The notes under the pieces are model-generated. The model saw only the letters and a program-made list of their open reading frames with translations. It made no database searches and had not been told where the DNA came from. From the NCBI GenBank assembly GCA_001464455.1, contig LNEI01000018.1, positions 411,343-475,342 on the forward strand: a stretch of DNA of 64,000 nt, given 5' to 3'. This document shows positions 49,877-64,000 of this stretch, in pieces. Every line of letters begins with the position of its first letter. Positions within the stretch are counted from its first letter, which is position 1. The translations under genes were made by a program, and so were the position numbers. The stretch comes from Acidobacteria bacterium Ga0077534 (GTDB lineage: Bacteria; Acidobacteriota; Blastocatellia; Pyrinomonadales; Pyrinomonadaceae).

Positions 49877-50938
49877 CTATTTAAAGACACTCCCGCCCAA
49901 AACAGTCTCGCGAATGTAAGCGACGGTATCCTGTAGAGTTTCCTGCGGATCGCGGGGAGCAAACCCTAACTCATCGTGAGCCTTTGTCGAGTCGAAATAC
50001 CAGAAATACTCTGCCTGCTCGACCTCATTCGGAGCAACCGGCGACGGTTTCCCCCAATTCTTGTACAGCGAACTTACAATGCTCGAGCCTGCCATAGCGA
50101 GCTTTTTCGGCACTCTCAGCATCGGGGCCGAAACACCGCTCAGTCTTTCAAGTCGGCCAAAAAACTGCGCAAAGGTCATGTTTTCTGCTCCCAGCAGATA
50201 ACGTTCCCGATGCCTTCCCTTCTCAAGAGCACCTATAAAAACTGCCGCGGCATCACGGACGTCGACAAAATTTAATCCGCCGCTCGGCGTGTACGGGATC
50301 TTGCGGGCAAGAAAATCGAGCACCGGCTTTGTCGAACTCAACCGCTCGTCGCCCGGGCCGAGCAGAAGCGATGGATTCATGATGACTAGCCTCTGCCCCT
50401 CGCCACTGAAATTCTCAAGAGCAGTCCTTTCCTGAAAATACTTGGAGGCGTAATACGACCAGCGCGTCAAGATATCTATCGGCTGAGGATACGTCTCATC
50501 AACTACCTGGTCAGCCTCGCTTACGGCGATCGTTCCGCTCGACGACGCGAGGATCATCGTTGCGATCCCGGCTTCCGTTGCCGCCTCACACAGCAGTCGC
50601 GTACCTTCCAGGTGAACCCGATTCATTGCAGCAGCATCGTCGTTGTCACGCGAGACCTTTCCAGCGAGATGGAAGATCGAGGAGACGTTCTTGCAAGCCT
50701 TAGCGAGATCGTCGCGATCGGTCACCGAACCTTCAACGGCCTTGACCCCGGCGTCCTTCATCCACTCGGGCACGCTTGACGCAAAAACCTTCAGGTTCGT
50801 CTCGCCCGCATCGAGAAACTGCTGAACTACGTGGGTTCCAAGAAAACCAGTCCCGCCCGTTATCAGTATCCGCTTTTTCTCAGCCTTATCTGTCTTAGCT
50901 AGTGCCTTTGTCTTAGCCATATGAGCAAATCCCGTCAA
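49877..50938 (-). CDS. NAD-dependent epimerase/dehydratase (extended SDR)
   Basis: ILITGGTGFLGTHVV Rossmann motif and the YxxxK region (YYASKYFQE). It starts 4 nt after the GH47 gene stop. An alternative start is at 50920. Confidence 0.8.
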   Translation of the reverse strand: MTGFAHMAKTKALAKTDKAEKKRILITGGTGFLGTHVVQQFLDAGETNLKVFASSVPEWMKDAGVKAVEGSVTDRDDLAKACKNVSSIFHLAGKVSRDNDDAAAMNRVHLEGTRLLCEAATEAGIATMILASSSGTIAVSEADQVVDETYPQPIDILTRWSYYASKYFQERTALENFSGEGQRLVIMNPSLLLGPGDERLSSTKPVLDFLARKIPYTPSGGLNFVDVRDAAAVFIGALEKGRHRERYLLGAENMTFAQFFGRLERLSGVSAPMLRVPKKLAMAGSSIVSSLYKNWGKPSPVAPNEVEQAEYFWYFDSTKAHDELGFAPRDPQETLQDTVAYIRETVLGGSVFK

Positions 50939-50942
50939 AGTA

Positions 50943-52400
50943 CTATTTCCACGTCTTTCGTATAGGATGTGCCTCTGTATTGAACACGACTTTGTTAATA
51001 TCCAGAGTCTTATCCGGAGCGAACAGCAAATAGAAATACTTGAACGTCTCCGCCAGCAGGAAGCTGTGCATATAGTCGGTCTTTTCCTTGGTGACGACGT
51101 CTTTCAGACCCGCGTAGGCGACGTCGTGTCGGCAATGTTTAACAAAATCCTCAAACATCTGCTTACCCATCGCCAGGTATTTCGGATCTTTTGTGAACTG
51201 ATAGAGGATATACGTCGATTCGACTATCTCAGGTCGTAGGGGATAGCCCCCATTGATGACTTTTCCCGCTTTATAATCGTAAACTTCCGGCTCGATGCCG
51301 TGGGCTTGCCACATCTTGAACATCGAGTCCTGCAAAGCCCTCGCACGGTTTAAGTCGCCGTCTAGAGCGAGAACCCCGGGAAAGAATGCATCCAGAGCCC
51401 CGGTGACTGTCGCTGTTCGTCGGCCTGTATTCATGTCGACGCGGCCGTACCAAAGGTCGCCGACTTTCACGCTTCCCGTGCGGCTCGGGTTGATCATGTC
51501 CGTGCCTTCGTCTGCCAGATAAGAATGGACCTTTGATATCGAGTCCTCCCACATGTCGCGGCAATCTTTGTCGCCAAAGAGGATCGAGCATTTCAACAGG
51601 TATTCGTAATACGAATCGATCTCAGCGCTAACGTGGCTCTCAGTCTTGGTCCACTTGCCGGTTTCGACGTCGATGTTCGTCCCGACAAGGCCTATCGGCG
51701 AACGACGTTTGTACGTTTCGACCAATGCCCGTTTTGCTTTGTCGTAATATATCGGCTTATTTGTCAGTTTGCTAAGTGTGCCGAATTCCAGCAGCAGAGT
51801 TCCCGTTTCCGCCGGATTCGAAATGTTTCCGCTCGTTTTGCCGGTTTTGAGATTGACGTATTTGTAAGGCAAACCCGTTGGCGAATCGAACACCGGAAGG
51901 AGGCGTGTTCCAAGATCGTCGGCGAGAGCAAGCAGCTTCTTGTCGTTCGTCATCTGATAGCTCGTGATCAGTCCACCAAGAATGCGAATTACTATCTCGA
52001 AATTCTGTACTGAGATATCCTTATCAAACGAAAGATTCTCGGTGATGTACTTTCGCGTAGCATCTCCTTCCTTCTTAAACCCGAGCATGTAAAGCGAATC
52101 GAGCGAGTCGACAGGCGTCATCAGTATCGACTGCCCGTACCAATCACGACAGGTTTTCGTCAGGGGCTTCAGGTCGTCGCGGCCCCAGCAATACTGCTTG
52201 TAGCCGTTCCACGCATGAAGGAATTCTACTTTCACCTTCTCAGCGAGTTCTTTACGGTCAACGGTCTGAGCGTCCGCCGATACTGAAAAGATGAGCGTGA
52301 CCACCACGGCAACGGCTATCAACAGACCCAGTGCTCGGAAATTATTCTGCATATCCAAGGATATTAACCGGAGTGGCCCGAAAATCGATAATTGGCCCAT
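50943..52400 (-). CDS. glycoside hydrolase family 47 (class I alpha-1,2-mannosidase-like)
   Basis: FLHAWNGYKQYCWGRDDLKP, NFEIVIRILGGLITSYQMT, GTLLLEFGTLSKLT and EVYDY...YPLRPE(I)VES are GH47 blocks as I remember them. The likely true start is MQNNF at 52352, which gives a signal anchor. Confidence 0.75.
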   Translation of the reverse strand: MGQLSIFGPLRLISLDMQNNFRALGLLIAVAVVVTLIFSVSADAQTVDRKELAEKVKVEFLHAWNGYKQYCWGRDDLKPLTKTCRDWYGQSILMTPVDSLDSLYMLGFKKEGDATRKYITENLSFDKDISVQNFEIVIRILGGLITSYQMTNDKKLLALADDLGTRLLPVFDSPTGLPYKYVNLKTGKTSGNISNPAETGTLLLEFGTLSKLTNKPIYYDKAKRALVETYKRRSPIGLVGTNIDVETGKWTKTESHVSAEIDSYYEYLLKCSILFGDKDCRDMWEDSISKVHSYLADEGTDMINPSRTGSVKVGDLWYGRVDMNTGRRTATVTGALDAFFPGVLALDGDLNRARALQDSMFKMWQAHGIEPEVYDYKAGKVINGGYPLRPEIVESTYILYQFTKDPKYLAMGKQMFEDFVKHCRHDVAYAGLKDVVTKEKTDYMHSFLLAETFKYFYLLFAPDKTLDINKVVFNTEAHPIRKTWK

Positions 52401-52423
52401 CAGTTTCTGACTGGGCTTAAAGC

Positions 52424-52482
52424 CACATAGGAACAGAGATCACATAGCATCCAAAAACTATGTTCATCTATGTTCCTATGTG
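52424..52482. promoter_or_regulatory. nested inverted repeat between the M16 peptidase stop and the GH47 start
   Basis: CACATAGGAACA (52424-52435) pairs with TGTTCCTATGTG (52471-52482), a perfect 12 bp. An inner ACATAG/CTATGT pair is present. It could be a terminator of the upstream gene or an operator. Confidence 0.5.
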
Positions 52483-52496
52483 TTAATAAGCGAATC

Positions 52497-55304
52497 CTAC
52501 TTAGTAAGTAAGACCGGATCACCAAACCCGAGTTCCTTCAACCGCGGCAACTGGGTCTTAGCGTCGCCGACGACAAGCCAGTACATTTTGTTCGGATCGA
52601 AGTACTTCGCAGCGATCTCTCTGATACGAGCCACCGTCATATCCTTGACGATCTGCTCACGTCCCTTTACGTAGTCGTACTTCCATCCGTATTTGCTGAT
52701 GTTCTCGAGCATGTTCAGCTTCGCCCCAGCGGTCTCGAAAGCACGAGCATTACTCTTGATAAGAAAACTCTTCGTAGTTTCGAGATCTTTGTCCGAGTAA
52801 TTCTTACCGTAGTTTTCAAGGATGTCCTTGATCAACTGAAGCGATTCGAGCGTTACATTCGCCCTGACGCCGCTGGCGATAGTGAAAGTTCCGCCTGCGG
52901 CCGTGCCGTCAAAATCTGACCCAATACCGTAGGTATACCCTTTACCTTCGCGGAGCTGCTGGGTCAACTGCGACGCAAATCCGCCACCGCCGAGGATGTA
53001 GTTTGCTACGTCCGCCGGATAAAATTCCTTGTCGGTCACCGGGAGTGCCGGATAACCGATGCGTAGGATAGATTGCTTCGCATCAGGAACGTCGTAGAAG
53101 TATACGGTTGGCTTGGTTGGCGGGGCCGGAGCCTTGTAAACAGGTATGGTCACAGACTTTGCCTTCCACTTGCTTTCTATGCCCTTTAACGAACTTGCGA
53201 CCTTCACCTTATCGATCGCTCCGACGACGTGCATCCTGGCAACCGACGGTGAAATTGCCTTAGCGTAGAACGCTTTCAGATCTTCGATCGTGATCGAATT
53301 GACCGAATCGACCGTGCCGAGAATGCTGCGCGAACGCATGTTGTCCTTTCCGTATATCAGCCTGCCAAAGTTGAGTGCGGCGACCGTGTTCGGGTTGGCA
53401 TCCTGCTGACGGATCGAGCTGATGGTACTTTGTTTGATCAGCTCAAATTCCTTAGCGTCCCAGCGCGGTTCGAGTAGGATCTCTTCGACCAAAGCAAGCG
53501 TCGCGTCGTAGTTCTTAGCCAGCGTATTTGCCGTGATCCGAACATCCTCGGTATCCGCAGAAACATTGATCGAGGCACCCAGCTGCTGGATCGCCTCTTC
53601 GAGTTCCTGCGGAGTTCGCTTTGCGGTTCCCTGCGTCATCATGCGTGCCATCATGTTGGCGACGCCGACCTTGTTGATGTCATCCAGGAGCTGGCCGCCA
53701 TCGATCGCGATCTCAAACTGAACAAGCGGCACTTCGCGATTATCTATTCCATATATTCGCAAGCCGTTCGACAGCTTTCCTTCCCATATAGTCGGTATTT
53801 TGACCGCGGGTGTAGGGCCATACGGCGGCTCGACCGTGCGGTCAAAAGTCGACGGGGTCTTCTCATATTTTGCGTCGACTTTCGGATCGACGGCGTCTTC
53901 GGCTCCCTGAACGATCTTCTCCTCAACGACGTCGGCTTTCTTAGAACCTTCGAGAGCAAGCTCGACCTTGCCCTTTGGCACGAAGCTTGTCGCGATAAAA
54001 TTCTTGCCTTTGATGTACTTTCCGTACACGCGGGTCACATCCGCGGGAGTAACAGCCTGAATACTCTTGATGTCGTTCTCGATGCAGCCCGGATCGCCCG
54101 CGAAGATATTGCACTGAGTAAGCTGAACACCCTTGCCGAGAACGCTCGAAAGCGAGTTGTAAAACTGCGTCTCCTGCCCTGCTTTGATTCGGTCGAGGTC
54201 CTTAACGGCGATCCCTTCCTTTTCAAACTTCGCGAAAGCCTCACCTACAGCCGCCGCAACCTCATCGAGGTCCTTGTCTGGAAAAGCCCTGATCGAAAGC
54301 TGAAGCTGACCTGCAAGTTCCGAGGTTCGATTGAACATCCCGGCTCCGGCGGCGAGCTTCTTGTCCTCGACAATAACCTGGTAGAAAGGAGCCCGCTTTC
54401 CGCGTGTCAGGTATTGCGAAAGCACGGCTAGTGCGTACGAATCAGGATGATACTGCTCTACGCTCGGCCACGTCATAGTGAGTTCGGGCAGGCGAGCGAA
54501 ATTGTCCTCGTGATAAAGCTTGACCGTTTCTTTTACGACGCCAGGCCGCTTTTGAAGCGGTGTGATAATTTCGCCACGTTTGATCTCGCTGAAGTATTTC
54601 TCGACCCACTTTTTCGCTTGAGCTGTATCGAAATCGCCCGCGACGGTTAATGTCACGTTATTCGGCACATACCAGCGGCGGAAAAATTCTTTAACATCTT
54701 CCAACGTTGCATTTTGAAGATCTTCAAGCGAGCCGATGACCTGCCAGTTGTACGGATGATCGGCGGGATAAAGGGCCTTGTCGATTACATATGACGTGTG
54801 TCCGTACGGCTGATTGTCGACGCCCTGACGCTTTTCGTTCTTTACGACCTGTTTCTCTTTCGCCAAGACCGGTTCCGTAACAGTATTGATAAACCAGCCG
54901 AGCTTATCCGCTTCGGCCCACAGCATTTTCTCAAGTGCGTCCTTCGGCACGGTCTGGAGATAATTTGTTCGGTCGCGGTTTGTTGAACCATTAGCCCCCG
55001 AACCTCCGATCCGTGCCGTCATCGCATCGAGTCCGCCTTTGCCGAGATTCTCCGATTCGAGAAAAAGGAGATGCTCGAACATGTGAGCAAAGCCCGTTCG
55101 CCCCGTTTTCTCGCGGGCAGAACCGACGTGAGCAGTAAGCGACACAGCAACTACCGGATCACTGCGGTCGACATGAAAGATCACTTCAAGGCCGTTCGGC
55201 AGCGTGAATTTTTCGTACTCGACCTTGAGAGCCGGACCCTGACCAAAACTGAGCGTCGACACGACGGCGACGACTAGCGACATTGAAAATATCTTTTTTA
55301 ACAT
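52497..55304 (-). CDS. M16 (pitrilysin/insulinase) family zinc peptidase, double-length four-domain form
   Basis: 935 aa. Signal peptide, the inverted zinc motif HMFEH (HxxEH), and a second non-catalytic M16 half. Confidence 0.85.
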   Translation of the reverse strand: MLKKIFSMSLVVAVVSTLSFGQGPALKVEYEKFTLPNGLEVIFHVDRSDPVVAVSLTAHVGSAREKTGRTGFAHMFEHLLFLESENLGKGGLDAMTARIGGSGANGSTNRDRTNYLQTVPKDALEKMLWAEADKLGWFINTVTEPVLAKEKQVVKNEKRQGVDNQPYGHTSYVIDKALYPADHPYNWQVIGSLEDLQNATLEDVKEFFRRWYVPNNVTLTVAGDFDTAQAKKWVEKYFSEIKRGEIITPLQKRPGVVKETVKLYHEDNFARLPELTMTWPSVEQYHPDSYALAVLSQYLTRGKRAPFYQVIVEDKKLAAGAGMFNRTSELAGQLQLSIRAFPDKDLDEVAAAVGEAFAKFEKEGIAVKDLDRIKAGQETQFYNSLSSVLGKGVQLTQCNIFAGDPGCIENDIKSIQAVTPADVTRVYGKYIKGKNFIATSFVPKGKVELALEGSKKADVVEEKIVQGAEDAVDPKVDAKYEKTPSTFDRTVEPPYGPTPAVKIPTIWEGKLSNGLRIYGIDNREVPLVQFEIAIDGGQLLDDINKVGVANMMARMMTQGTAKRTPQELEEAIQQLGASINVSADTEDVRITANTLAKNYDATLALVEEILLEPRWDAKEFELIKQSTISSIRQQDANPNTVAALNFGRLIYGKDNMRSRSILGTVDSVNSITIEDLKAFYAKAISPSVARMHVVGAIDKVKVASSLKGIESKWKAKSVTIPVYKAPAPPTKPTVYFYDVPDAKQSILRIGYPALPVTDKEFYPADVANYILGGGGFASQLTQQLREGKGYTYGIGSDFDGTAAGGTFTIASGVRANVTLESLQLIKDILENYGKNYSDKDLETTKSFLIKSNARAFETAGAKLNMLENISKYGWKYDYVKGREQIVKDMTVARIREIAAKYFDPNKMYWLVVGDAKTQLPRLKELGFGDPVLLTK

Positions 55305-55483: not shown

Positions 55484-55606
55484 ATGAAAAACAATAACGA
55501 TCAAAAAGACATCTTGGGCTTCACTCTCATCGAACTGCTCGTAGTGTCCGCAGGTGTCATGGTTCTGATCGGCTTGCTTTTGCCTGCAATTCAGAACGCG
55601 AGGTAG
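55484..55606 (+). CDS. 40-aa prepilin-type N-terminal cleavage/methylation peptide (pilin stub)
   Basis: Too short for the ORF track. AAGGAG lies 8 nt upstream of the ATG. Translation is MKNNNDQKDILGFTLIELLVVSAGVMVLIGLLLPAIQNAR. G/FTLIELLVV is the class III signal peptide with Glu+5, and LLLPAIQNAR mirrors the DUF1559-type LLLPAVQ.AR. A 12-bp terminator hairpin follows. Confidence 0.55.
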   Translation: MKNNNDQKDILGFTLIELLVVSAGVMVLIGLLLPAIQNAR

Positions 55607-55622: not shown

Positions 55623-55652
55623 GCGAGTGGCTTCGTATTCGGAGCCGCTCGC
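55623..55652. terminator. bidirectional stem-loop
   Basis: GCGAGTGGCTTC-gtattc-GGAGCCGCTCGC forms 12 bp, including two G-U pairs. It lies between the pilin-stub stop (55606) and the megasynthase stop (55657). Confidence 0.6.
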
Positions 55653-55656
55653 CTTC

Positions 55657-58600
55657 TTAGTCTTCAATAACCGGCTCCTGCTTTCTCGACCGCCGCCGCT
55701 CGGCTTTCCATTGCTTTCTTAACGCTTCGACATCGAACATTTGACGTGAACCGTCCCGAAGATTCTCAACCTCGTGTTGGACGCGTGCTGCGATCAAACG
55801 ATAAGCTTCCGCATTCGGAACACCCCCGGTCATCTTGCGAAGTTCCTCATGCTCTAGAAATCGTCCGACTTTCGCCCCGACTCTGGCCCCGATACTCGAA
55901 CTCTTCGGGATTATCATCCCTTTTGGAAACGCCTCGTAGGTCCCCCAGATATAGATCGGGAGGATACCGATCTTTTGATTCAGCGCCAAATAGCCAATTA
56001 TCGGCTTGAACTCAGCGATCTGCCCGGATTCCTGACGTCCGCCTTCTGGAAAAATGAGCGCGTTATACCCTTCGTTCAATATCTGCGTTACATGCCGCAG
56101 CGACTGACGCAAACTGCCCGTTCGTTCGATGGGAACGAGAGTAGTAAAGTTGTTCATGTACGCACGTTTGTACTTAGTATCAAACCAGTAATCAGCCGCC
56201 GCAACCGCGACCGTTTGCTCGGCCGCGTCTTTACCAAGAGCGCGTTTCACAAGTCCGGTATCAATGTGCGACGTGTGATTTGGAGCAACAATGAAATTAA
56301 CATGCGGCGGCACGTTGGATTCACCCTCGATCGAGGTCTCGAGCACGCTCGAGTAGAGCGTGTCCTGAGCAAAATCGACGACCGCATTGCCCACCCTGCG
56401 GACAATGCCGGGGACGTAAAGCTCATCTTCTTCCTTCTTTTCTTCGAGCTTCGGCTCGTCGGCAAGTCTTTTGGACTTGTCGATCCGCTGAATGACAGTA
56501 AGGAGTTCGCGAACCGTTTGCACTTCGTTCAAAGTATCCGGCGACAGAACACGCCCGCCGGCATCCTCGATTGCGGCTTGCAACTCGACAAACATTAGCG
56601 AGTCAAACCCGAGATCGGCAAGCTTATCTTCGATAGCGACATCGGATAGAGTTCGGCTCGACACGCTGGCGACGACCTTCCGGATCCAGACGGTATTGTC
56701 GTCGCCTTTCGCCTCGACCTGTGTTTTTGATCTCGATTTGGAACGCTCCTCGAGTGTCTGGATCATCTCGACAACAATCGGACGCTTTACCTTACGCGTC
56801 GCAGTGCGTGGCAACTCGAACGGTGTGACATGCAGGACTTTTACGCGCTTAAAAAACGGTAGCCCGGACGAAACTTCACGGAAATGCGCCTCAACCTTTT
56901 TGTTCGTCTCCGAACGCGTAAACGCAATATCGTGCTCGTAATCCGGCACGACAAGAGCCGCGATCTTCTCGCCCCCGTCCTGATCTTGCAGCCCGACGAC
57001 GCTCATTTCCTTTATGAATCCTGATTTCGAATAAAGATCCTCGATCTCGTCTGGGTAAATGTTCTTTCCATTCGAATCGATGATCACATCTTTCGACCGG
57101 CCGACGATAAAGAGATTTCCATCATCGTCGATCCGACCAAGATCACCCGTTCGAAGCCACCTATCCTGAAGCACTGCCTCGGTCGCGGCTTCGTTATTGA
57201 AGTAGCCGACCATCACATTCTGGCCGCGAGCCAAAACCTCACCGACACCCTTCTCATCCGGTGCATCGATCTTGACCTCGACACCGGGCAGAGGCTTTCC
57301 GACGCTCCCGCGCAATAGCTTATTGCCCGGCCGGGCTACTGTAAGAACCGGCGAGCTTTCGGTCAATCCATACCCCTCAAGCACCGTGAATCCAAGTCCG
57401 TGCAAGTCTTTTTGTACTTTTTCTGACAAAGCAGATCCGCCAGAGATCAGATATCGCATCTTGCCGCCCATGCCCTGATGGATCGGGAAAAAGACGATCG
57501 GGCCGAGGTTGAACGGCGTGTTATCACGTATCCACGCGTTAAATTCGATGACGTTATCAGCAAGATCCGCGATCCAGTCGCCTTTCTCACGAAGTCGCGT
57601 TTTAATCCTGCGGTGCAGCATCTCCCACAAAGCCGGAACTCCAACGAGCCCTGTGACGTGGCTGTTTTCAATAGTCCGGGCGAGGTCTTCGGCCGTCAGT
57701 TCATTCAAATAGGTGATCTGCGTGCCGTTCGAGAAAGGCGTGAGGAAACCCGCCGAAAACTCAAACGTGTGGTGCATCGGAAGCACACTTAGAACACCGT
57801 CGGTAATGTCCATCTCGAGCACCGATGAGAGCATCGAGATCATGTTGACAAAGTTCTTATGGGACAGCATCACCGCCTTCGGCGTACCCGTAGTACCCGA
57901 AGTAAAGATCAGCGACGCGACCGCGTTCGAAGGGATCTTAGCTGGAAGCAAAGCATTCCGCTTCGCCTCCTCCGTCTCCGACTGCATCTCGAAAATTTCG
58001 TCGAAAGTCCAGACGACTGGAGCCGAACTCCCCTCCTTGGATAAGGAGGGGTGGCCGCCGCCCTGGGCGGACGGGGTGGTTTGAAATGCCGCGGACAATC
58101 TCGAAGCAAGTTCAGGATTTTCCACTGCCAGTTTCGGCGAAATCACCACCGCAGAAGCCTCGCCCGCTTTAGCAAACGCAATGATCTCATCCACCGTCGA
58201 AGCGGGATCGATCGGTATCGCGGTCGCTCCGGCTTTCAGGATGCCAAAATACGTCATGCCCCATTCAGGCATGTTGTTTGAAAACAAGATCACACGTTCC
58301 CCGGTCGCGATACCATTCTTCGCAAAAAATCCGGCCGCTCGATAGGTCAATTCTCGAACATCTTCGTACGTGTACTGCTCTTTTCTGCCTTCACGCTCGA
58401 TCCGCATCGCGACGCGAGTCGGAAAACGCTTGACCGAGGTTTCGAAGAGATCATTTAGGTCTTTGTATGTGTAGGCCCGTTTCTCGACCCCCTTGAGCTC
58501 TTCTTCGAGAGCGGGTAAAACCCATTTCCGCATGCCCGGAAAATGTACGTTCAACCAGTAGTCGTACCAGTCCAGCCGCTCGGGATACCAAGGCAGGAGA

Positions 58601-60135
58601 TGTTTTTCTTTATCTCTGATGACCGATTGAAGAGCTCGCACGTTATCGGAGCGATAAAGATACTCGTTATCGATCATGAACGGTTTGAACATTGAAAAAG
58701 CGTCCATCGTCGCCTGTGTCGACTCTTTAAAACTCTCAGTCGATTTTTTGAGATCAGAAACAATATTACCGATACGCCCACCGCCCCAACGTGGAGTTGC
58801 CCAGTCCATGAGGTTGTCGGCCCTTTTGGCCAGCTTGTTTAGCATGGGCGCGGACGCCAGCTCGTAGGTTCGCTGCTTGACTGGGATCGCCTCTACCATT
58901 CCGGCGAGTTTGTTGGTAATTTTGTTTCCGGTCTCTTTGTCTTCAAAATGCTGACGCTTGTACAGGCCCACGAGCCCGACGATGCGTTTCATGTCATTCG
59001 GATTCGAATCGCCTGACGATGCCTGAAACACCAGCGGCGGATTTGGATCGACCAGCACATTCATGGCCGCCGCCAGAATCGCCCCCGCGACCATGTCGAC
59101 TGGAATAATATCGAGGATCAGCTTCTCGTTTACCGGAATGATCGGCTGCCCGCGAAGCGCGATAAGAATGAGCGGAGCGGTCGTCGTAAAGCCTTCGTTC
59201 CAACCCGGAAACGGATACGCCTGCGAAGACTCCACGATCGACGGTCGCACGAGCGTTTTCACAATGTCGTCCTGCGACGCGATGATCTGCTCGGCCAGCG
59301 ACTTCGAATAAGTATAAATATTCGTCCAGCCCCAATACTCAGCTCGCTCGGCCCCAAGTTCGGTCGTACGCTCGCGGATCCACATTTTTCGCTCGCGAAA
59401 TATCGCAGATTTTAGTTCCGCTTCGTCGTCGGGATCACGCCCCTCTTCTACAAACCGATTCCGTGCCTGCTCGCGGAATTTCGCGTGCTGTACCGCGTCG
59501 TCAGCTTCCTGCCGTGCTTGCTCGGACAAACGAGCACAGTCCTCGACCTCGCGATTTACGTCGAATTTCGTTCCAACCAGCTCATCTTTTCGTGGGAAAT
59601 ATCCGACAACCGGCTCGTTCTCCCAGATCGGCCCTGATTTCTTCCCCGCCACGAAACACGTCGAAACGTGAACCAGTCGTGGCTTCTTCATCATGCGAGC
59701 GAGTTTGATTATGTTGTTCGAACCATTGATATTGGTCCGCAAGGCAGATTCGAGTGGCGGATTAAAGGTTACATTTCCGGCGCCATTTATAATGACGTCC
59801 GTATCACGCATAATCTTCTTCGCCTCTTTCTCATCCAGCCCCAGATACTCGTTCCCGACGTCGCCATTCACCGGCACAACTTTCGATCGAATAAAGTCCT
59901 CAAACCCATCCCCGTACTTTTCCCGCAAAGGATCAAACGTCGGACTCGTGACGATGCTCGTCCAAAACCGTATCTTCGACTCATTAGCGTCCCGAGCCCG
60001 AACCGTTGCATAAACCTTCCCGATATCCGGAAAATTATGCAGTAGCATCGACAAGGTAACCTTCCCGACAAAGCCCGTTCCGCCAATAAAGAAGACCTTC
60101 TTACCCTTAAATATTTCTGTTGGTGATAGTTTCAT
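55657..60135 (-). CDS. four-domain lipid megasynthase: fatty acyl reductase (NAD_binding_4 + FAR_C), acyl-AMP/CoA ligase, ACP, 1-acylglycerol-3-phosphate acyltransferase (ElbD-like)
   Basis: 1492 aa. FAR domain at aa 14-500: FFIGGTGFVGKV, YTYSK. AMP-binding domain at aa ~575-1110: LIFTSGTTGTPKAV, GYGLTE, TGDLG, ATRKVKR. ACP at aa ~1150-1217: LGFDSL, Ser1179. PlsC domain at aa ~1265-1400: HX4D as NHTSHID, and FPEGGR. Confidence 0.85.
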   Translation of the reverse strand: MKLSPTEIFKGKKVFFIGGTGFVGKVTLSMLLHNFPDIGKVYATVRARDANESKIRFWTSIVTSPTFDPLREKYGDGFEDFIRSKVVPVNGDVGNEYLGLDEKEAKKIMRDTDVIINGAGNVTFNPPLESALRTNINGSNNIIKLARMMKKPRLVHVSTCFVAGKKSGPIWENEPVVGYFPRKDELVGTKFDVNREVEDCARLSEQARQEADDAVQHAKFREQARNRFVEEGRDPDDEAELKSAIFRERKMWIRERTTELGAERAEYWGWTNIYTYSKSLAEQIIASQDDIVKTLVRPSIVESSQAYPFPGWNEGFTTTAPLILIALRGQPIIPVNEKLILDIIPVDMVAGAILAAAMNVLVDPNPPLVFQASSGDSNPNDMKRIVGLVGLYKRQHFEDKETGNKITNKLAGMVEAIPVKQRTYELASAPMLNKLAKRADNLMDWATPRWGGGRIGNIVSDLKKSTESFKESTQATMDAFSMFKPFMIDNEYLYRSDNVRALQSVIRDKEKHLLPWYPERLDWYDYWLNVHFPGMRKWVLPALEEELKGVEKRAYTYKDLNDLFETSVKRFPTRVAMRIEREGRKEQYTYEDVRELTYRAAGFFAKNGIATGERVILFSNNMPEWGMTYFGILKAGATAIPIDPASTVDEIIAFAKAGEASAVVISPKLAVENPELASRLSAAFQTTPSAQGGGHPSLSKEGSSAPVVWTFDEIFEMQSETEEAKRNALLPAKIPSNAVASLIFTSGTTGTPKAVMLSHKNFVNMISMLSSVLEMDITDGVLSVLPMHHTFEFSAGFLTPFSNGTQITYLNELTAEDLARTIENSHVTGLVGVPALWEMLHRRIKTRLREKGDWIADLADNVIEFNAWIRDNTPFNLGPIVFFPIHQGMGGKMRYLISGGSALSEKVQKDLHGLGFTVLEGYGLTESSPVLTVARPGNKLLRGSVGKPLPGVEVKIDAPDEKGVGEVLARGQNVMVGYFNNEAATEAVLQDRWLRTGDLGRIDDDGNLFIVGRSKDVIIDSNGKNIYPDEIEDLYSKSGFIKEMSVVGLQDQDGGEKIAALVVPDYEHDIAFTRSETNKKVEAHFREVSSGLPFFKRVKVLHVTPFELPRTATRKVKRPIVVEMIQTLEERSKSRSKTQVEAKGDDNTVWIRKVVASVSSRTLSDVAIEDKLADLGFDSLMFVELQAAIEDAGGRVLSPDTLNEVQTVRELLTVIQRIDKSKRLADEPKLEEKKEEDELYVPGIVRRVGNAVVDFAQDTLYSSVLETSIEGESNVPPHVNFIVAPNHTSHIDTGLVKRALGKDAAEQTVAVAAADYWFDTKYKRAYMNNFTTLVPIERTGSLRQSLRHVTQILNEGYNALIFPEGGRQESGQIAEFKPIIGYLALNQKIGILPIYIWGTYEAFPKGMIIPKSSSIGARVGAKVGRFLEHEELRKMTGGVPNAEAYRLIAARVQHEVENLRDGSRQMFDVEALRKQWKAERRRSRKQEPVIED
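58025..58081. repeat. palindromic element embedded in frame in the ligase domain
   Basis: CCCCTCCTT-ggat-AAGGAGGGG (58030-58051) is followed by the GC-rich palindrome CCGCCCtGGGCGG (58058-58070) and GGGGTGGTT. It encodes TTPSAQGGGHPSLSKEGSSAP (aa 686-706). Confidence 0.6.
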
Positions 60136-60158
60136 TTCAAAACGGTGTTCAAGGCGTT

Positions 60159-60941
60159 TTAGAGTCGCTCACTCATTGCGAGAGACGTTTCGGTCAGGGT
60201 TGTATTCTTGCTAAAAAAGATCATCTCTCCCGAATACCCGTGATCAGTTGGAATTGAAATCTTGTTCAGGCATCCATTGCTCTCAAGCAATTTCGCAACC
60301 CGCCCCATATCGTAAGAATACATCGGAATAAAAGGACGTTTCTCACGCTTTACCAAACTCAGCACCCGATGAGCGAATGGGATGTCGCGATAAACCCGCG
60401 AACGCAAGCGCTTAAATATCGGAGCGACGTCGGTATGCGTCAGATGTATCATACCGACACCGCCCGGTTTTAGGCTCTTAAGCATTTTTTCAATGATCCG
60501 ATAGCCGATTAGCGGCTCGACGTGCTGTAAAACAATGTAGGTATGAACCAGATCGAACTCGGCATCTTTACCCGCGACAAACTCTTGGTCCGTTCGCAGT
60601 TCGAAAGCCTCAAGACCCGCAACATCTATATTTCTTCGACACTCTTCCAGCATTCCGGCGGATATATCGACGCCGACGACAGATCCGCAACGCTCGGCTA
60701 GCGGCAGAAGCACGCGGCCAACGCCGCAGCCGTAATCGAGAGCCTTTGTGGGCTTTCCCAGGGAACCGAAAGCGCTTTCGAGTTCGGTGAATACGAGATC
60801 CACATGCTCGCGGCCGCTTTCAAAAAACTCTGCCTTCGCTTTCTCATCGAGCCCGCCGGCAAGATACTTGTCGTAGGTCGCGACGCCGAAATAAGCTTCG
60901 CGCGCAGCGATCTCCTCCCATATCTCTTTTCCGTTGGCCAT
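60159..60941 (-). CDS. class I SAM-dependent methyltransferase
   Basis: Motif I LDYGCGVGRV, then VVGVDIS..ML, with Rossmann-like spacing. It ends 23 nt upstream of the megasynthase start. Confidence 0.8.
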   Translation of the reverse strand: MANGKEIWEEIAAREAYFGVATYDKYLAGGLDEKAKAEFFESGREHVDLVFTELESAFGSLGKPTKALDYGCGVGRVLLPLAERCGSVVGVDISAGMLEECRRNIDVAGLEAFELRTDQEFVAGKDAEFDLVHTYIVLQHVEPLIGYRIIEKMLKSLKPGGVGMIHLTHTDVAPIFKRLRSRVYRDIPFAHRVLSLVKREKRPFIPMYSYDMGRVAKLLESNGCLNKISIPTDHGYSGEMIFFSKNTTLTETSLAMSERL

Positions 60942-61058
60942 TTATTAGTTATATTGCCCCCGCAAATGAACAGGCACCCACAGGATCGCGACATACCGTG
61001 TCATCGTTCAGGGTCCAGATTGCAACACTCTTTGCACAGTGGGCACTTCGTCAAAAAA

Positions 61059-62615
61059 CTATTCAGGCAGATTCATACGTTTCAACATGGCTTTGAATCG
61101 TGGCTCAGACCGCAAGTCATCAACATCCGGCAAAACGCCCAAATAGATCGCATTAAATGAGTGACTCGATACTTCTCGTTCAAGTTCGTTCAAGGCCTTC
61201 TCTTTCTCTCCGAGCCCGATGTATACAACCGCCAATGTACTCGGCCGAACATAAACTTCGCTCGCTGCCTTTTTCAGCTCGGCAAGGATCTTCACTGCTT
61301 CTTCGCGGTTACCGGATTTTCCCAGCCATAATGCCAAATACCCTTTTATGAAAAACGTGTTATTTAGTTCGAGCGCAGTGCGCGCCTCAGTTATGGCTTC
61401 CGTATACATTCCCTTTGATCCGTATGCCCAGCCCAAATAACTATGAGCTCGAGAGAAATTCGGGTCTCGAACAAGCGTGCGTTTAAATTGGGCGATCGCT
61501 TCATCGTATCTACGGGCAAATACCAACGTGGCTCCGAGATCCGTGCCGATGTCGGGCGAAAGCGGATCGAACTCCTCGGCTAGTCTTTGTTCGGCCAGTG
61601 CTTCGTCAAAACGTTTGACCACCGTGAGATTCGCAGCGAACCATTGATGAGCAGTGGCGTAATTAGGCTTGAGTTCGATGGCACGGCGAAACTCCTTTTC
61701 CGATCGATCCAAGTCATATTCAAAAAGCATTAGATAATACCCGAGAGCCGTATGGGCCTCAGCCAATGAATCATCGATCTCTAACGCACGCAAGGCAGCC
61801 GCCTTCGCCAACGGCATACTGTCATCCGCCGACGCGACATTGTTAGCTCCAAAGAGGACATAAGTTTCAGCCAAACCAGAAAAGGCAAGCGCGTAGTTCG
61901 GGTCTTTCTCGATCGCCTTTCTGTAAAATTCAGCGGAGCGTTTGAGATCGTTGCCTGTTCGTTTGTTCCAGAAGAACTTTCCCTTCAGATAAAGCTGATA
62001 AGCTTCCGCATTCTCCGTATGACGTCTGAGTACAGCCGTTTTCTCCTCCCCGAGCAGCTTCACCTTTAGGGCTTCGACCACCGCCAACGTGATCTCGTCC
62101 TGTATCTCAAAGATGTCCCGCATGTCACGGTCGTAGCGTTCCGACCAAAGGTGGAAACCGTCGGATGCGTTGATCAGCTGGACGGTTATCCGAACGCGGC
62201 TTCCCGCTTTTCGAACACTGCCTTCGAGAATCGAGCTGACATTTAGCACCCGCCCGATCTCGCCCATCGATGCGGTTTTGCCCCGAAATGAGAACGCCGC
62301 AGTACGGGCTGCTACTTTAAGATCGTCGATCTTGGCGAGTGCGTTCATCAACTCCTCCGCCAGCCCGTCGCAAAAATATTCGTTGTCCGCGTCCGAGCTC
62401 ATATTCACGAACGGGAGCACGGCGATCGAGTTCGCTTGCCCCGATTTTCCGTTCTTTGGGTTGAGCATGATAAGCGTGCCCTGGGCGTCTGACCGATCCG
62501 AAATGACCGCAGTCTCCGCGTCGAACGCGGTCTTGCTCCTTAGAGGAGTACCGTCCTCAAGACAGAAGCTCATCGTAAGATCAAATGCGCGGCCACACTT
62601 GGGGCATACCATCAT
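61059..62615 (-). CDS. zinc-ribbon / TolB-N-like (IAVLPF) / TPR protein
   Basis: N-terminal CPKCG...C zinc-ribbon-like segment. IAVLPFVNMSSDADNEYFCDGLAEELMNALAKI is the module often found C-terminal to Ser/Thr kinases or cyclases. About 7 TPR units follow. Confidence 0.7.
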   Translation of the reverse strand: MMVCPKCGRAFDLTMSFCLEDGTPLRSKTAFDAETAVISDRSDAQGTLIMLNPKNGKSGQANSIAVLPFVNMSSDADNEYFCDGLAEELMNALAKIDDLKVAARTAAFSFRGKTASMGEIGRVLNVSSILEGSVRKAGSRVRITVQLINASDGFHLWSERYDRDMRDIFEIQDEITLAVVEALKVKLLGEEKTAVLRRHTENAEAYQLYLKGKFFWNKRTGNDLKRSAEFYRKAIEKDPNYALAFSGLAETYVLFGANNVASADDSMPLAKAAALRALEIDDSLAEAHTALGYYLMLFEYDLDRSEKEFRRAIELKPNYATAHQWFAANLTVVKRFDEALAEQRLAEEFDPLSPDIGTDLGATLVFARRYDEAIAQFKRTLVRDPNFSRAHSYLGWAYGSKGMYTEAITEARTALELNNTFFIKGYLALWLGKSGNREEAVKILAELKKAASEVYVRPSTLAVVYIGLGEKEKALNELEREVSSHSFNAIYLGVLPDVDDLRSEPRFKAMLKRMNLPE

Positions 62616-62630
62616 GAGTTTCGCGTTCTC

Positions 62631-64000
62631 CTAATCTGTCACACTGCACAGGCCGATCATCGGCTGGTGCAGCATCGTTATTTCCGCGTTACGGCCCATG
62701 TAGCTGCGGGCCATCGCTATCGCGTCCGTCAGATTATCGGCTCGTTCCCAGCCGAGCATTTCGGGCACGTGAGCGTTTTCCGCACCGGCGACGATCACCT
62801 TACCGATATGCTGACGCCCATTTTCGCCCCAGTACCACATAAAGAACGGATGGGCCCCGTGATATGCATTGCCGCGACGGTACATCTCGATATACGCGGG
62901 ATTGGTCGCGAATTCGCGTTCGTACTTTTCACGGAGATAGAACGCGTCTCGCGATTCGGGCAGCAGGCGATGAAAAAATTCGATGTAGCTCGGGTGAAAA
63001 TTGTGATCAAATTCGTCAAAGCACGGATGCGTGATGATCATCACTCCGCCCGTTCGCAGCAAAGGCTTGTTGCGATACATGTTGAAGTGATACCCGAGCG
63101 CCATCACCTGTACGAGCAAAGGGTTAAGGGCCGAATAAACGTTGTACGGCGAAATATCGGGAATTCCCGAGATCAGGATGTCACACTGGCCCTTGACCGG
63201 GATCTCGTACTGCCGGTAGTTCATCTCGAGGATCTTCTCGTGAACCGGCTCGGTCGAACCTGCATAACAAGCGATCAGTTCATACTGAGCCGGGATCGCA
63301 TGAAGCATCTTTCGCCGCGCAGCTCTCGGCATTTTGGAGAATGTCCGGGCCATCGCTTCCCATTTCAGACGGTCGGCGAACGAGAATTCGTCCTCGTTCC
63401 TAGTCAGAATGTCGTAACCCTCGGGAAACATCTTATTATTCAGGGCGGTCTCGATGTGAAAGACCTTGCAGTTTTCGTCTACCAGTTTCCCAAGGCGGAT
63501 GACCTTGTGATTTAGCACGGACCGAGGCGGATCCATGTATGAGTTCGAATCGCGAATCGTCTGAGGTTCGTGATGGGCCCGCAGAGACTCGTAGTCACAC
63601 AGCCCTACAGCTACCGATTTATGCCCGCCATCCATCGGAACCAGATTGATATTGAGATAGATGAGCAGGTCGCTCTCGATCGCTCGTTTATTTACACGCA
63701 GCGGTTCGTTGTGACGCGTGTGGCCGAGAACGATCAGATTGTCGTCGTCCTCGGCGTCGTGGTTGTAATAGCGGTCAGGGTAATATTCGTCAAAGATCGT
63801 CGACCCGACCATGCGTTTCATTTCCCACGCCGTCATTTTGCGATGCAGCGAGTTCGCGATGATCAGATGCACGTCATCGACGCCGTTCGCACCGCACATA
63901 TCCAGAACGACCTCGAGCATCGTTTGCCGGAGATCCGGCGTAGCCATCGGCGGCAGCGGAAGACTAATGTCGTCCATCGCGATCGTCACCCGCATCCCAG
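62631..64000 (-). CDS. LarA-like (lactate racemase N-terminal domain, DUF2088) protein; 5' end beyond the right edge
   Basis: The frame stays open to base 64000. [13 protein letters not shown]...[14 protein letters not shown] aligns in my memory with LarA IVIISSDHTRPVP...ILVATGFHRPST. About 75 N-terminal residues are expected to be missing. Confidence 0.6.

What the first reader, a model, noticed from the sequence alone, without database searches (positions are those of the whole stretch)
55657..60135. 1492-aa FAR / acyl-AMP ligase / ACP / PlsC fusion: an ElbD-like ether-lipid (alkylglycerol) megasynthase
- All four domains keep their catalytic signatures: the GGTGFVG and YxxxK reductase motifs, the SGTTGxPK adenylation core, the DSL phosphopantetheine site, and the HX4D plus FPEGG acyltransferase motifs.
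- The logic is self-contained. A fatty acid is activated, loaded on the ACP, reduced to aldehyde or alcohol, and combined with a glycerol-phosphate backbone.
- From memory, this architecture matches ElbD of the Myxococcus xanthus elb (ether lipid biosynthesis) locus.
- Also from memory, elb homologues have been linked to ether-bound iso-diabolic acid lipids in some Acidobacteria, the suspected source of brGDGT membrane lipids.
- The enzymology of the ether-forming step is still poorly defined, so this locus is the best candidate system in the window.
Basis: partly seen in the sequence, partly recalled or inferred. Interest (0 to 1): 0.7.

Follow-up and report, generated by a model that had tools for sequence, protein, structure and literature searches.

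The report
ElbD-type ether-lipid synthase gene
This is an intact ElbD gene, the large four-domain enzyme that myxobacteria need to make ether-linked membrane lipids, and it sits in a soil acidobacterium with its usual partner genes; that makes it a correct but already documented kind of find.

Summary
Window 55657-60135 (-) is one intact 1492-aa ORF with four domains in the order reductase (FAR), acyl-AMP/CoA ligase, ACP, PlsC-type acyltransferase.

The interpretation also holds:
- The protein aligns end to end with ElbD of Myxococcus stipitatus (43% identity over 1479 residues).
- Its neighbours are orthologues of ElbC (60%), ElbE (46.5%) and ElbB (47%, just past the window end).
- The same HAD / Lar_N / ElbD / epimerase module recurs in about 50 Pyrinomonadaceae genomes. 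It also occurs in Anaeromyxobacteraceae and in MAGs labelled Gemmatimonadaceae and Deltaproteobacteria.

The window comes from a Pyrinomonadaceae (Acidobacteria subdivision 4) genome. The literature already reports the elb cluster in that group, and the identical protein is already in public databases. So this is a new member of a known kind.

- The enzyme is not self-contained. It belongs to a four-gene module.
- The adjacent methyltransferase is a passenger in an insertion hot spot.
- The link to brGDGT lipids remains unproven.

Side lead: ElbC, described as of unknown function, is a LarA-family protein. The nickel-pincer cofactor residues are invariant in it.

The parts
55657..60135 (-). 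elbD orthologue, 1492 aa, four-domain enzyme (FAR - acyl-AMP/CoA ligase - ACP - acyltransferase)
   Evidence: ORF. Pfam domains. 100% identical to public protein P0001. 43% identity end to end with M. stipitatus ElbD. Under purifying selection.
58501..60135 (-). N-terminal fatty acyl reductase region (aa 1-545): NAD_binding_4 plus Sterile/FAR_C, with Rossmann GGTGFVG (aa 18) and Y274/K278
   Evidence: Pfam. Motifs. ST...YxxxK conserved in 26 family members. Best solved relative is 7eoz, a fatty acyl-CoA reductase, E 3e-48.
56770..58446 (-). Adenylate-forming fatty-acid ligase domain (aa 564-1122), core motifs A3, A5, A7, A8 and A10 intact
   Evidence: Pfam AMP-binding and AMP-binding_C. Motifs. 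NCBIfam long-chain fatty-acid ligase models hit below their cut-offs.
56497..56688 (-). Acyl carrier (PP-binding) domain (aa 1150-1213), phosphopantetheine serine in GFDSL (S1179)
   Evidence: Pfam PP-binding E 3e-11. The D-S motif is conserved in 25 of the 26 family members aligned.
55945..56331 (-). PlsC-type glycerolipid acyltransferase domain (aa 1269-1397), HX4D (H1287, D1292) and FPEGG (1362)
   Evidence: Pfam Acyltransferase E 6e-18. Blocks I-IV conserved. FPEGGR rather than FPEGTR is a lineage trait, seen in 113 of the 120 closest relatives.
62631..64000 (-). elbC orthologue (Lar_N / DUF2088, LarA superfamily). It is cut by the window end; the full gene has 533 aa and runs to window-equivalent position 64232.
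   Evidence: Pfam Lar_N. 60% identity over 520 aa with M. stipitatus ElbC. Nickel-pincer cofactor residues invariant in 59 orthologues.
49877..50920 (-). elbE orthologue, NAD-dependent extended short-chain dehydrogenase ('epimerase/dehydratase' family), 347 aa as called
   Evidence: Pfam Epimerase. 46.5% identity over 329 aa with M. stipitatus ElbE, against only 28% with ElbA. Lies directly after elbD in relatives L002 and L087. Present in 51 of 57 loci with enough downstream DNA.
60159..60941 (-). SAM-dependent methyltransferase, 260 aa, 23 nt upstream of elbD. Judged an accessory or passenger gene, not a core part.
   Evidence: Pfam Methyltransf_25/11/12. This type occurs in only 3 of about 60 related loci. 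A different, non-orthologous methyltransferase fills the same slot in 8 others, and many loci have none.
61059..62615 (-). TPR protein inserted between elbC and the methyltransferase; passenger
   Evidence: Pfam TPR. Similar proteins sit in this slot in only 4 related loci.
50943..55304 (-). M16 peptidase (52497-55304) and GH47 glycosidase (50943-52400), inserted between elbD and elbE. Frequent in this family but absent from compact versions of the cluster.
   Evidence: Pfam. Present in many Pyrinomonadaceae loci, absent in L002, L028, L029, L083, L084, L087, L088 and Myxococcus.
55623..55652 (.). 13-bp G+C-rich hairpin 5 nt after the elbD stop codon, without a T tract
   Evidence: It may mark the 3' end of the transcript; function untested.

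Best explanation
The ORF is the ElbD orthologue of an uncultured Pyrinomonadaceae bacterium (Acidobacteria subdivision 4). It is the central enzyme of a conserved four-gene ether-lipid module: elbB (HAD phosphatase-like, just outside the window), elbC (LarA-like), elbD, and elbE (NAD-dependent SDR).

Likely mechanism:
1. The ligase domain adenylates a long-chain, probably iso-branched, fatty acid and loads it as a thioester on ElbD's own ACP. This step has been shown in vitro for M. xanthus ElbD.
2. The N-terminal reductase reduces the tethered or CoA-bound acyl group with NAD(P)H to the aldehyde or alcohol. This is inferred; an i15:0 aldehyde disappears in M. xanthus elbD mutants.
3. The C-terminal PlsC-type domain acylates a glycerol-3-phosphate or DHAP backbone. 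This is inferred and has never been shown.
4. The alkyl group replaces or joins at sn-1 to give a 1-O-alkylglycerol lipid, with help from ElbC, ElbE and ElbB. This step is unknown.

The expected product is the sn-1 monoalkyl glycerol ether reported in cultured subdivision-4 acidobacteria.
For: **The protein itself**
- Four domains in the published ElbD order.
- End-to-end 43% identity with Myxococcus stipitatus ElbD, 1227 bits.
- All catalytic motifs conserved across 26 diverse homologues of the same clade.
- Strong purifying selection on each domain.

**Partner genes**
- Orthologues of ElbC (60%), ElbE (46.5%) and ElbB (47%) lie on the same strand.
- The module is present in 50 of 52 related loci with enough upstream DNA and 51 of 57 with enough downstream DNA.
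- It is also present in Anaeromyxobacteraceae and in MAGs labelled Gemmatimonadaceae and Deltaproteobacteria.

**Function, from the literature**
- M. xanthus elbD mutants lose alkyl and vinyl ether lipids, and its ligase and ACP activities are shown in vitro (PMC9131029; PMC13012113).
- Subdivision-4 acidobacteria make alkyl ether lipids, carry the elb cluster and lack Ger homologues.
Against: - No lipid data exist for this organism, which is known only as a MAG.
- The reductase and acyltransferase activities of ElbD have never been demonstrated.
- Presence of elbD homologues does not guarantee ether lipids: Pontiella has homologues but no ether lipids were detected.
- In this window the cluster is broken up by unrelated genes (M28, TPR, methyltransferase, M16, GH47), and a hairpin follows elbD. 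Co-transcription with elbE or elbC is therefore not assured.
- The M. xanthus protein itself (Q1DC43) could not be fetched, so a congeneric orthologue was used instead.
Confidence: 0.78

Rival explanations
1. A fatty aldehyde or fatty alcohol producer for neutral lipids such as wax esters or signalling lipids. It would work like a carboxylic-acid reductase (adenylate, load on carrier, reduce), with the acyltransferase domain making esters only. No ether bond would depend on it in this organism.
For: - Only adenylation and ACP loading are shown for ElbD, and an aldehyde is the only intermediate tied to it.
- The reductase is a FAR-type NAD_binding_4 plus Sterile domain, closest to a solved fatty acyl-CoA reductase.
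- Some organisms with elbD homologues show no ether lipids.
Against: - M. xanthus genetics link elbD specifically to alkyl and vinyl ether lipids.
- The tight, cross-phylum association with elbB, elbC and elbE is not expected for a plain alcohol producer.
- No wax synthase gene lies in the window.
Confidence: 0.1
2. An Aas-like lysophospholipid re-acylation enzyme (acyl-ACP synthetase plus acyltransferase) that recycles membrane lipids and has acquired an extra reductase domain.
For: - NCBIfam models for acyl-[ACP]--phospholipid O-acyltransferase hit at E 1e-61 and 6e-44.
- Shorter ElbD-like proteins without the reductase (about 900 aa, ligase-ACP-AT) are common.
Against: - Scores are far below the curated cut-offs (209 against 1221 bits) and cover mostly the ligase.
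- The domain order differs from Aas.
- The reductase domain is intact and is the most constrained part in the two closest of the four comparisons.
- The protein is full-length orthologous to ElbD.
Confidence: 0.04
3. The direct ester-to-ether converter that builds tetraether (brGDGT-type) membrane-spanning lipids in Acidobacteria.
For: The literature proposes ElbD as the possible ether-forming step on iso-diabolic acid lipids in subdivision 4.
Against: - The role is stated to be unproven.
- A FAR/acyltransferase route is expected to give sn-1 mono-ethers only (my inference).
- No tetraether synthase, Mss or radical SAM gene is in the window.
- The brGDGT producer Solibacter usitatus lacks ElbD.
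Confidence: 0.08

Closest known systems
ElbD of the Myxococcus xanthus elbABCDE operon (MXAN_1528, UniProt Q1DC43), represented here by the Myxococcus stipitatus orthologue P0392
   Same: - Same four domains in the same order and similar length (1492 against 1474 aa).
- 43% identity from end to end.
- Same catalytic motifs.
- Same neighbours: elbB (HAD), elbC (Lar_N) and elbE (SDR).
   Different: - No elbA.
- The cluster is interrupted by unrelated genes (M28 peptidase, TPR, methyltransferase, M16, GH47).
- Lineage-specific motif variants (PKAV for PKGV, FPEGGR for FPEGTR).
- A low-complexity insert of about 25 aa in the ligase domain.
- No carF-type desaturase is evident in the window, so alkyl rather than vinyl ethers are expected (inference).
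Eukaryotic/myxobacterial FARAT (FAR fused to GNPAT; MXAN_1675 type), acting with AGPS
   Same: A fatty acyl reductase is fused to a glycerolipid acyltransferase, and both serve sn-1 alkyl ether lipid synthesis.
   Different: FARAT has no ligase or ACP and depends on a separate flavoenzyme, AGPS, for ether formation. No AGPS gene lies in the window or in the elb clusters examined.
Carboxylic acid reductases and NRPS-like A-T-R enzymes
   Same: Same chemical logic for the first steps: adenylate a carboxylic acid, tether it to a phosphopantetheine arm, and reduce it with an NAD_binding_4-type reductase (established knowledge of the family; Pfam).
   Different: The reductase is N-terminal and of the FAR type with a Sterile domain. 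A PlsC-type acyltransferase is appended.
LarA-like nickel-pincer enzymes with a single catalytic histidine (LarA_Sp 9q2u, LarA_Bw 9q3j); closest relatives of the partner protein ElbC
   Same: - Best solved relatives of ElbC (E 6e-36).
- The catalytic His, the cofactor-tethering Lys and the nickel-ligand His are all conserved.
   Different: - Only about 28% identity.
- The loop carrying the His-to-Asn position is deleted in ElbC, and His306 is replaced by Pro.
- The gene context is lipid, not carbohydrate.

Membership tests
ElbD (bacterial ether lipid biosynthesis multidomain enzyme) | Single polypeptide with FAR - acyl-CoA/AMP ligase - ACP - AGPAT-like acyltransferase, in that order | tested here: met
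   Pfam domains at aa 18-353/467-540, 564-1115, 1150-1213 and 1269-1397. The order is as described for M. xanthus ElbD.
ElbD (bacterial ether lipid biosynthesis multidomain enzyme) | Significant full-length similarity to Myxococcus ElbD | tested here: met
   BLASTP against M. stipitatus ElbD: 43% identity over 1479 columns, 1227 bits, query aa 2-1468. The M. xanthus sequence itself was not available. The M. stipitatus gene sits in an elbA-E operon laid out as published.
ElbD (bacterial ether lipid biosynthesis multidomain enzyme) | Catalytic residues of all four domains intact | tested here: met
   GxxGxxG, S/T...YxxxK; A3, A5, A7, A8 and A10; the D-S-L serine; HX4D and FPEG are present and aligned with the homologues.
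ElbD (bacterial ether lipid biosynthesis multidomain enzyme) | Genomic linkage with elbB (HAD), elbC and elbE (NAD-dependent SDR) | tested here: met
   - Orthologues at 47%, 60% and 46.5% identity lie on the same strand within about 6 kb on each side.
- Linkage is conserved in 50/52 and 51/57 related loci.
- elbB lies just beyond the window end.
ElbD (bacterial ether lipid biosynthesis multidomain enzyme) | Required for alkyl (and vinyl) glycerol ether lipid formation | not testable with these tools
   Genetic evidence exists only for M. xanthus. The role in Acidobacteria is stated to be unproven.
ElbD (bacterial ether lipid biosynthesis multidomain enzyme) | Host organism produces alkyl glycerol ethers | not testable with these tools
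   The source is a MAG (GCA_022841755.1). Cultured subdivision-4 acidobacteria are reported to make alkyl ethers.
Aas (acyl-ACP synthetase / lysophospholipid acyltransferase) | Score above the NCBIfam equivalog cut-off and the Aas domain order (acyltransferase N-terminal, ligase C-terminal) | tested here: not met
   PRK08633 scores 208.7 bits against a cut-off of 1221; PRK06814 scores 150 against 1349. The domain order is reversed and a reductase is added.
LarA superfamily, nickel-pincer nucleotide enzymes (for the partner ElbC) | Lar_N fold with catalytic His, cofactor-tethering Lys and nickel-ligand His | tested here: met
   Pfam Lar_N. His130, Lys205 and His221 align with His115, Lys195 and His211 of LarA_Sp and are invariant in 59 ElbC orthologues.
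LarA superfamily, nickel-pincer nucleotide enzymes (for the partner ElbC) | Second catalytic histidine (His174 of L. plantarum LarA) | tested here: not met
   The loop is shortened and no His or Asn aligns there. This resembles, but is not identical to, the single-histidine subfamily.
LarA superfamily, nickel-pincer nucleotide enzymes (for the partner ElbC) | Cofactor biosynthesis genes larB, larC and larE in the same genome | not tested
   None is seen in the 64-kb window.

The most novel reading that the evidence does not exclude
ElbC may be the missing ether-forming or ether-enabling enzyme of the oxygen-tolerant bacterial pathway. It would be a nickel-pincer-nucleotide 'hidden redox' enzyme.

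One possible mechanism: ElbC transiently oxidises the sn-2 hydroxyl of the 1-acyl-glycerol-phosphate made by ElbD's acyltransferase. The acyl group could then be exchanged for the alcohol or aldehyde from ElbD's reductase, and the ketone would be re-reduced. ElbC would thus replace the flavoenzyme AGPS.

ElbC is the best conserved gene of the module, and a 2022 review still describes it as of unknown function. The cofactor-binding residues are invariant and ElbC travels with ElbD across phyla. I found no paper in the searchable library that connects the two.
Probability: 0.2. Interest if true: 0.8.

Novelty: new member of a known kind. Interest (0 to 1): 0.35.

Why it matters
Ether-linked bacterial lipids underlie widely used palaeoclimate proxies (brGDGTs). 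They also bear on the 'lipid divide' between Bacteria and Archaea. The aerobic ether-forming chemistry of the elb pathway is still unsolved.

This locus adds no new kind of system. It does show three things:
- The whole elbB-C-D-E module is near-universal in Pyrinomonadaceae. At least 301 species-level genomes encode a relative of ElbD.
- The module's core can be separated cleanly from passenger genes.
- ElbC, the module's least understood and most conserved member, carries the hallmarks of a nickel-pincer enzyme. That gives a concrete, testable candidate for the missing step.

Tried and rejected
- **Query length.** Residues 1-1195 were used instead.
- **Taxon names.** Two cluster look-ups yielded almost no organism names. 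A second homology search seeded with the distant representative P0146 finally gave named myxobacterial ElbD proteins.
- **M. xanthus ElbD.** The M. xanthus protein itself (Q1DC43 / ABF88003.1) could not be retrieved, so M. stipitatus served as proxy.
- **Methyltransferase.** I considered the methyltransferase 23 nt upstream of elbD as a lipid methylase belonging to the system. I rejected this for three reasons:
  - its type occurs in only 3 related loci;
  - an unrelated methyltransferase fills the slot in 8 others, and many loci have none;
  - the same elbC-elbD gap (6 to 4563 nt) carries proteins that, by my reading of their sequences, look like MazF, PIN, KilA-N and ORF6N types. That pattern points to an insertion hot spot.
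- **Other ether or tetraether genes.** I looked through the rest of the window for AGPS, PlsA/Ger, Tes/Mss or radical SAM, carF and larBCE genes. None was found.
- **Signals.** Promoter-like sites were no more frequent than in shuffled sequence. The hairpin after elbD lacks a T tract, so the transcription units remain undefined.
- **Aas-type assignment.** Rejected on the NCBIfam cut-offs.
Full report
**1. The observation**

Pfam finds four domains in a row:

| Domain | Residues | E-value |
|---|---|---|
| NAD_binding_4 ('male sterility' fatty acyl reductase) | 18-353 | 1e-51 |
| Sterile / FAR_C | 467-540 | 2e-07 (below Pfam's cut-off) |
| AMP-binding | 564-979 | 1e-72 |
| AMP-binding_C | 1030-1115 | 8e-07 |
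| PP-binding | 1150-1213 | 3e-11 |
| Acyltransferase | 1269-1397 | 6e-18 |

- Reductase: GGTGFVG (aa 18) and YTYSK (aa 274).
- Ligase: SGTTGTPK (746), GYGLTE (921), TGD (996), GRSKD (1012) and PRTATRK (1109).
- Carrier domain: GFDSL (1176).
- Acyltransferase: HTSHID (1287) and FPEGG (1362).

The gene is clearly constrained. Against four orthologues, nonsynonymous differences are 0.05-0.22 per site in each domain, while synonymous sites are saturated at about 0.7-0.85.

**2. Source organism**

- An identical protein (P0001) is already in NCBI, JGI and ENA.
- The window matches contig JALHQX010000003.1 of assembly GCA_022841755.1.
- The 120 closest proteins (85-91% identity, same architecture) are labelled Pyrinomonadaceae, Blastocatellia, Acidobacteriota or 'Chloracidobacterium sp.' where a name is given.
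- A scan of one genome per species found 301 genomes encoding a relative. The best 80 (75-89% identity) are all MAGs labelled Pyrinomonadaceae/Pyrinomonadales, Blastocatellia/Blastocatellaceae, Acidobacteriota or 'Chloracidobacterium sp.'.
- The window therefore comes from Acidobacteria subdivision 4.

**3. Is it ElbD?**

Published descriptions give M. xanthus ElbD an N-terminal FAR1-like domain, then acyl-CoA synthetase, ACP and an AGPAT-like acyltransferase. It lies in an operon elbA (NAD epimerase family), elbB (HAD phosphohydrolase), elbC (unknown), elbD and elbE (NAD epimerase family) (PMC9131029; PMC13012113).

I could not fetch the M. xanthus protein, so I worked towards a close proxy:
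- A search of cluster representatives with residues 1-1195 showed a large family of 1400-1700-aa proteins at 31-52% identity.
- Seeding a second search with one of these returned named ElbD-like proteins from Myxococcus, Corallococcus, Archangium, Hyalangium, Melittangium and Anaeromyxobacteraceae.
- The Myxococcus stipitatus protein (P0392, 1474 aa) lies in a locus reading epimerase - HAD - Lar_N - four-domain protein - epimerase. That is the published elbABCDE layout, and it shows that elbC encodes a Lar_N/DUF2088 protein.
- The window protein aligns with it from residue 2 to 1468 at 43% identity, 1227 bits.
- In an alignment of 26 family members, the catalytic motifs of all four domains are conserved within this clade.

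**4. Surroundings**

In the window and the 6 kb beyond its end, the gene order on one strand is:

HAD - M28 peptidase - Lar_N - TPR - methyltransferase - ElbD - M16 peptidase - GH47 - epimerase

Identity to the M. stipitatus proteins:

| Window protein | M. stipitatus partner | Identity |
|---|---|---|
| HAD | ElbB | 47% |
| Lar_N protein | ElbC | 60% |
| Epimerase | ElbE | 46.5% |
| Epimerase | ElbA | 28% |

Related genomes show the compact form, HAD - Lar_N - (methyltransferase) - ElbD - epimerase.

Synteny across related loci:
- Of 52 related loci with more than 7 kb upstream, 50 carry both Lar_N and HAD.
- Of 57 with more than 8 kb downstream, 51 carry the ElbE-like gene.
- The same four-gene module occurs in Anaeromyxobacteraceae.
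- Starting from ElbC homologues, it also appears in MAGs labelled Gemmatimonadaceae and Deltaproteobacteria.
- A Planctomycetota homologue stands alone.

So the real unit is elbB-C-D-E, which extends beyond the coordinates given. elbE is at 49877-50920, elbC at 62631 to the window end, and elbB lies just outside.

**5. What does not belong**

The methyltransferase 23 nt upstream of elbD looked like a candidate lipid methylase, but the comparison argues against it:
- Its type is found in only 3 related loci.
- A non-orthologous methyltransferase (35% identity over 94 aa) sits in the same slot in 8 others, and many loci have none.
- The elbC-elbD gap varies from 6 to 4563 nt. Judging from their sequences, the proteins it carries look like MazF, PIN, KilA-N and ORF6N types.

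I read this gap as an insertion hot spot. The M16-GH47 pair between elbD and elbE is common in this family but absent from compact clusters and from Myxococcus.

The rest of the window is housekeeping. It holds no AGPS, PlsA/Ger, tetraether synthase, Mss, CarF or larBCE gene.

**6. How it most likely works**

Shown elsewhere:
- M. xanthus elbD mutants lose alkyl and vinyl ether lipids.
- The ligase and ACP domains are active in vitro.
- An i15:0 aldehyde is present in wild type but not in elbD mutants.
- The reductase and acyltransferase activities were not detected in vitro.

Inferred for this protein:
1. The ligase adenylates a long-chain fatty acid and loads it on the ACP.
2. The reductase takes it to the aldehyde or alcohol.
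3. The PlsC-type domain acylates a glycerol phosphate or DHAP backbone.
4. The ether bond at sn-1 is formed with the help of the partner proteins.

By analogy with the eukaryotic pathway, ElbE could act as the alkyl-DHAP reductase and ElbB as a phosphatase. This is my inference only.

The four domains alone do not account for ether formation, so 'self-contained' is too strong.

**7. A side lead: ElbC**

- ElbC is the most conserved protein of the module: 60% identity between Myxococcus and the window, and 93% within the family against 87% for ElbD.
- Its closest solved relatives are LarA_Sp (9q2u, E 6e-36) and LarA_Bw (9q3j). These are nickel-pincer-nucleotide enzymes with a single catalytic histidine and unknown substrate (PMC12611868).
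- In 59 ElbC orthologues, three residues are invariant: His130 (catalytic His), Lys205 (cofactor-tethering Lys) and His221 (nickel-ligand His).
- The loop that carries the second catalytic residue is deleted.
- Myxococcota are among the phyla with the highest prevalence of LarA homologues.
- A search of the paper library for 'nickel-pincer' together with 'ether lipid' found nothing relevant.

A hidden-redox enzyme acting on the sn-2 hydroxyl would be a chemically sensible substitute for AGPS. This remains speculation until larBCE co-occurrence, nickel dependence and an elbC deletion are tested.

**8. Comparison with what is known, and verdict**

- ElbD homologues and the elb cluster have already been reported in subdivision-4 Acidobacteria. 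They have been proposed, without proof, to make the ether bonds of iso-C15 and iso-diabolic acid glycerol ethers.
- Subdivision-4 genomes lack Ger homologues.
- The brGDGT producer Solibacter usitatus lacks ElbD.
- Homologues exist in organisms without detectable ether lipids.
- The brGDGT link is therefore unproven. A FAR/acyltransferase route would be expected to give sn-1 mono-ethers only (my inference).

The finding is correct and well read, but it is a new member of a known kind in a lineage where it was expected. Interest is moderate to low for ElbD itself. It would be higher if the ElbC lead proves right.

Noticed in passing
window 62631-64000 (-), full gene L001 5904-7505: - The elbC orthologue is a LarA/DUF2088 protein.
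- The nickel-pincer cofactor residues (His130, Lys205, His221) are invariant in 59 orthologues from the loci examined.
- It is nearest to the uncharacterised single-histidine LarA subfamily (9q2u, 9q3j).
- It is better conserved than ElbD.
   Followed up: partly
window 60136-62630; loci L002-L084 between Lar_N and ElbD: - The elbC-elbD intergenic slot varies from 6 to 4563 nt among related genomes.
- It carries unrelated cargo: two non-orthologous methyltransferase types, TPR proteins, and proteins that look like MazF, PIN, KilA-N and ORF6N types.
- This looks like a recurrent insertion hot spot inside a conserved cluster.
   Followed up: partly
window 55484-55606 (+): A 40-aa ORF, MKNNNDQKDILGFTLIELLVVSAGVMVLIGLLLPAIQNAR, lies antisense between elbD and the M16 gene. 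It looks like a bare prepilin-type N-terminal cleavage/methylation segment and is also called as a gene in the public assembly.
   Followed up: no
proteins P0157, P0161, P0164, P0165, P0185, P0186 and others (representatives): - A second clade of ElbD-like four-domain proteins includes Poribacteria and Fervidibacterota. It is marked by a GW(I/L)(D/E)G.RM.DP reductase motif.
- Its adenylation P-loop is degenerate (A3 intact in 0 of 20, against 21 of 25 in the ElbD clade).
- It often lacks the A10 lysine.
- Its ligase domain may therefore work differently or be inactive.
   Followed up: partly
proteins P0127-P0153: At least 17 of the 67 long representatives carry an extra C-terminal extension of about 100 aa. 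Its conserved ending (C-V-hydrophobic-K-T ... K-T-N-D ... F) resembles an SCP2-type lipid-binding domain. The window protein and Myxococcus ElbD lack it.
   Followed up: no
window 50943-55304 (-): An M16 peptidase plus a GH47 glycosidase are wedged between elbD and elbE in many Pyrinomonadaceae genomes. From memory, GH47 is mostly a eukaryotic alpha-mannosidase family.
   Followed up: no
window 55657-60135, aa 746-755 and 1362-1367: Lineage-specific motif variants: SGTTGxPKAV instead of PKGV in 119 of 120 close relatives, and FPEGGR instead of FPEGTR in 113 of 120. From memory, the latter resembles the PlsB/GPAT form of block III.
   Followed up: partly
window 13233-17588 (-): A 1451-aa protein combines Calx-beta, cohesin, dockerin and beta-helix domains, an unusual mix for an acidobacterium.
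   Followed up: no
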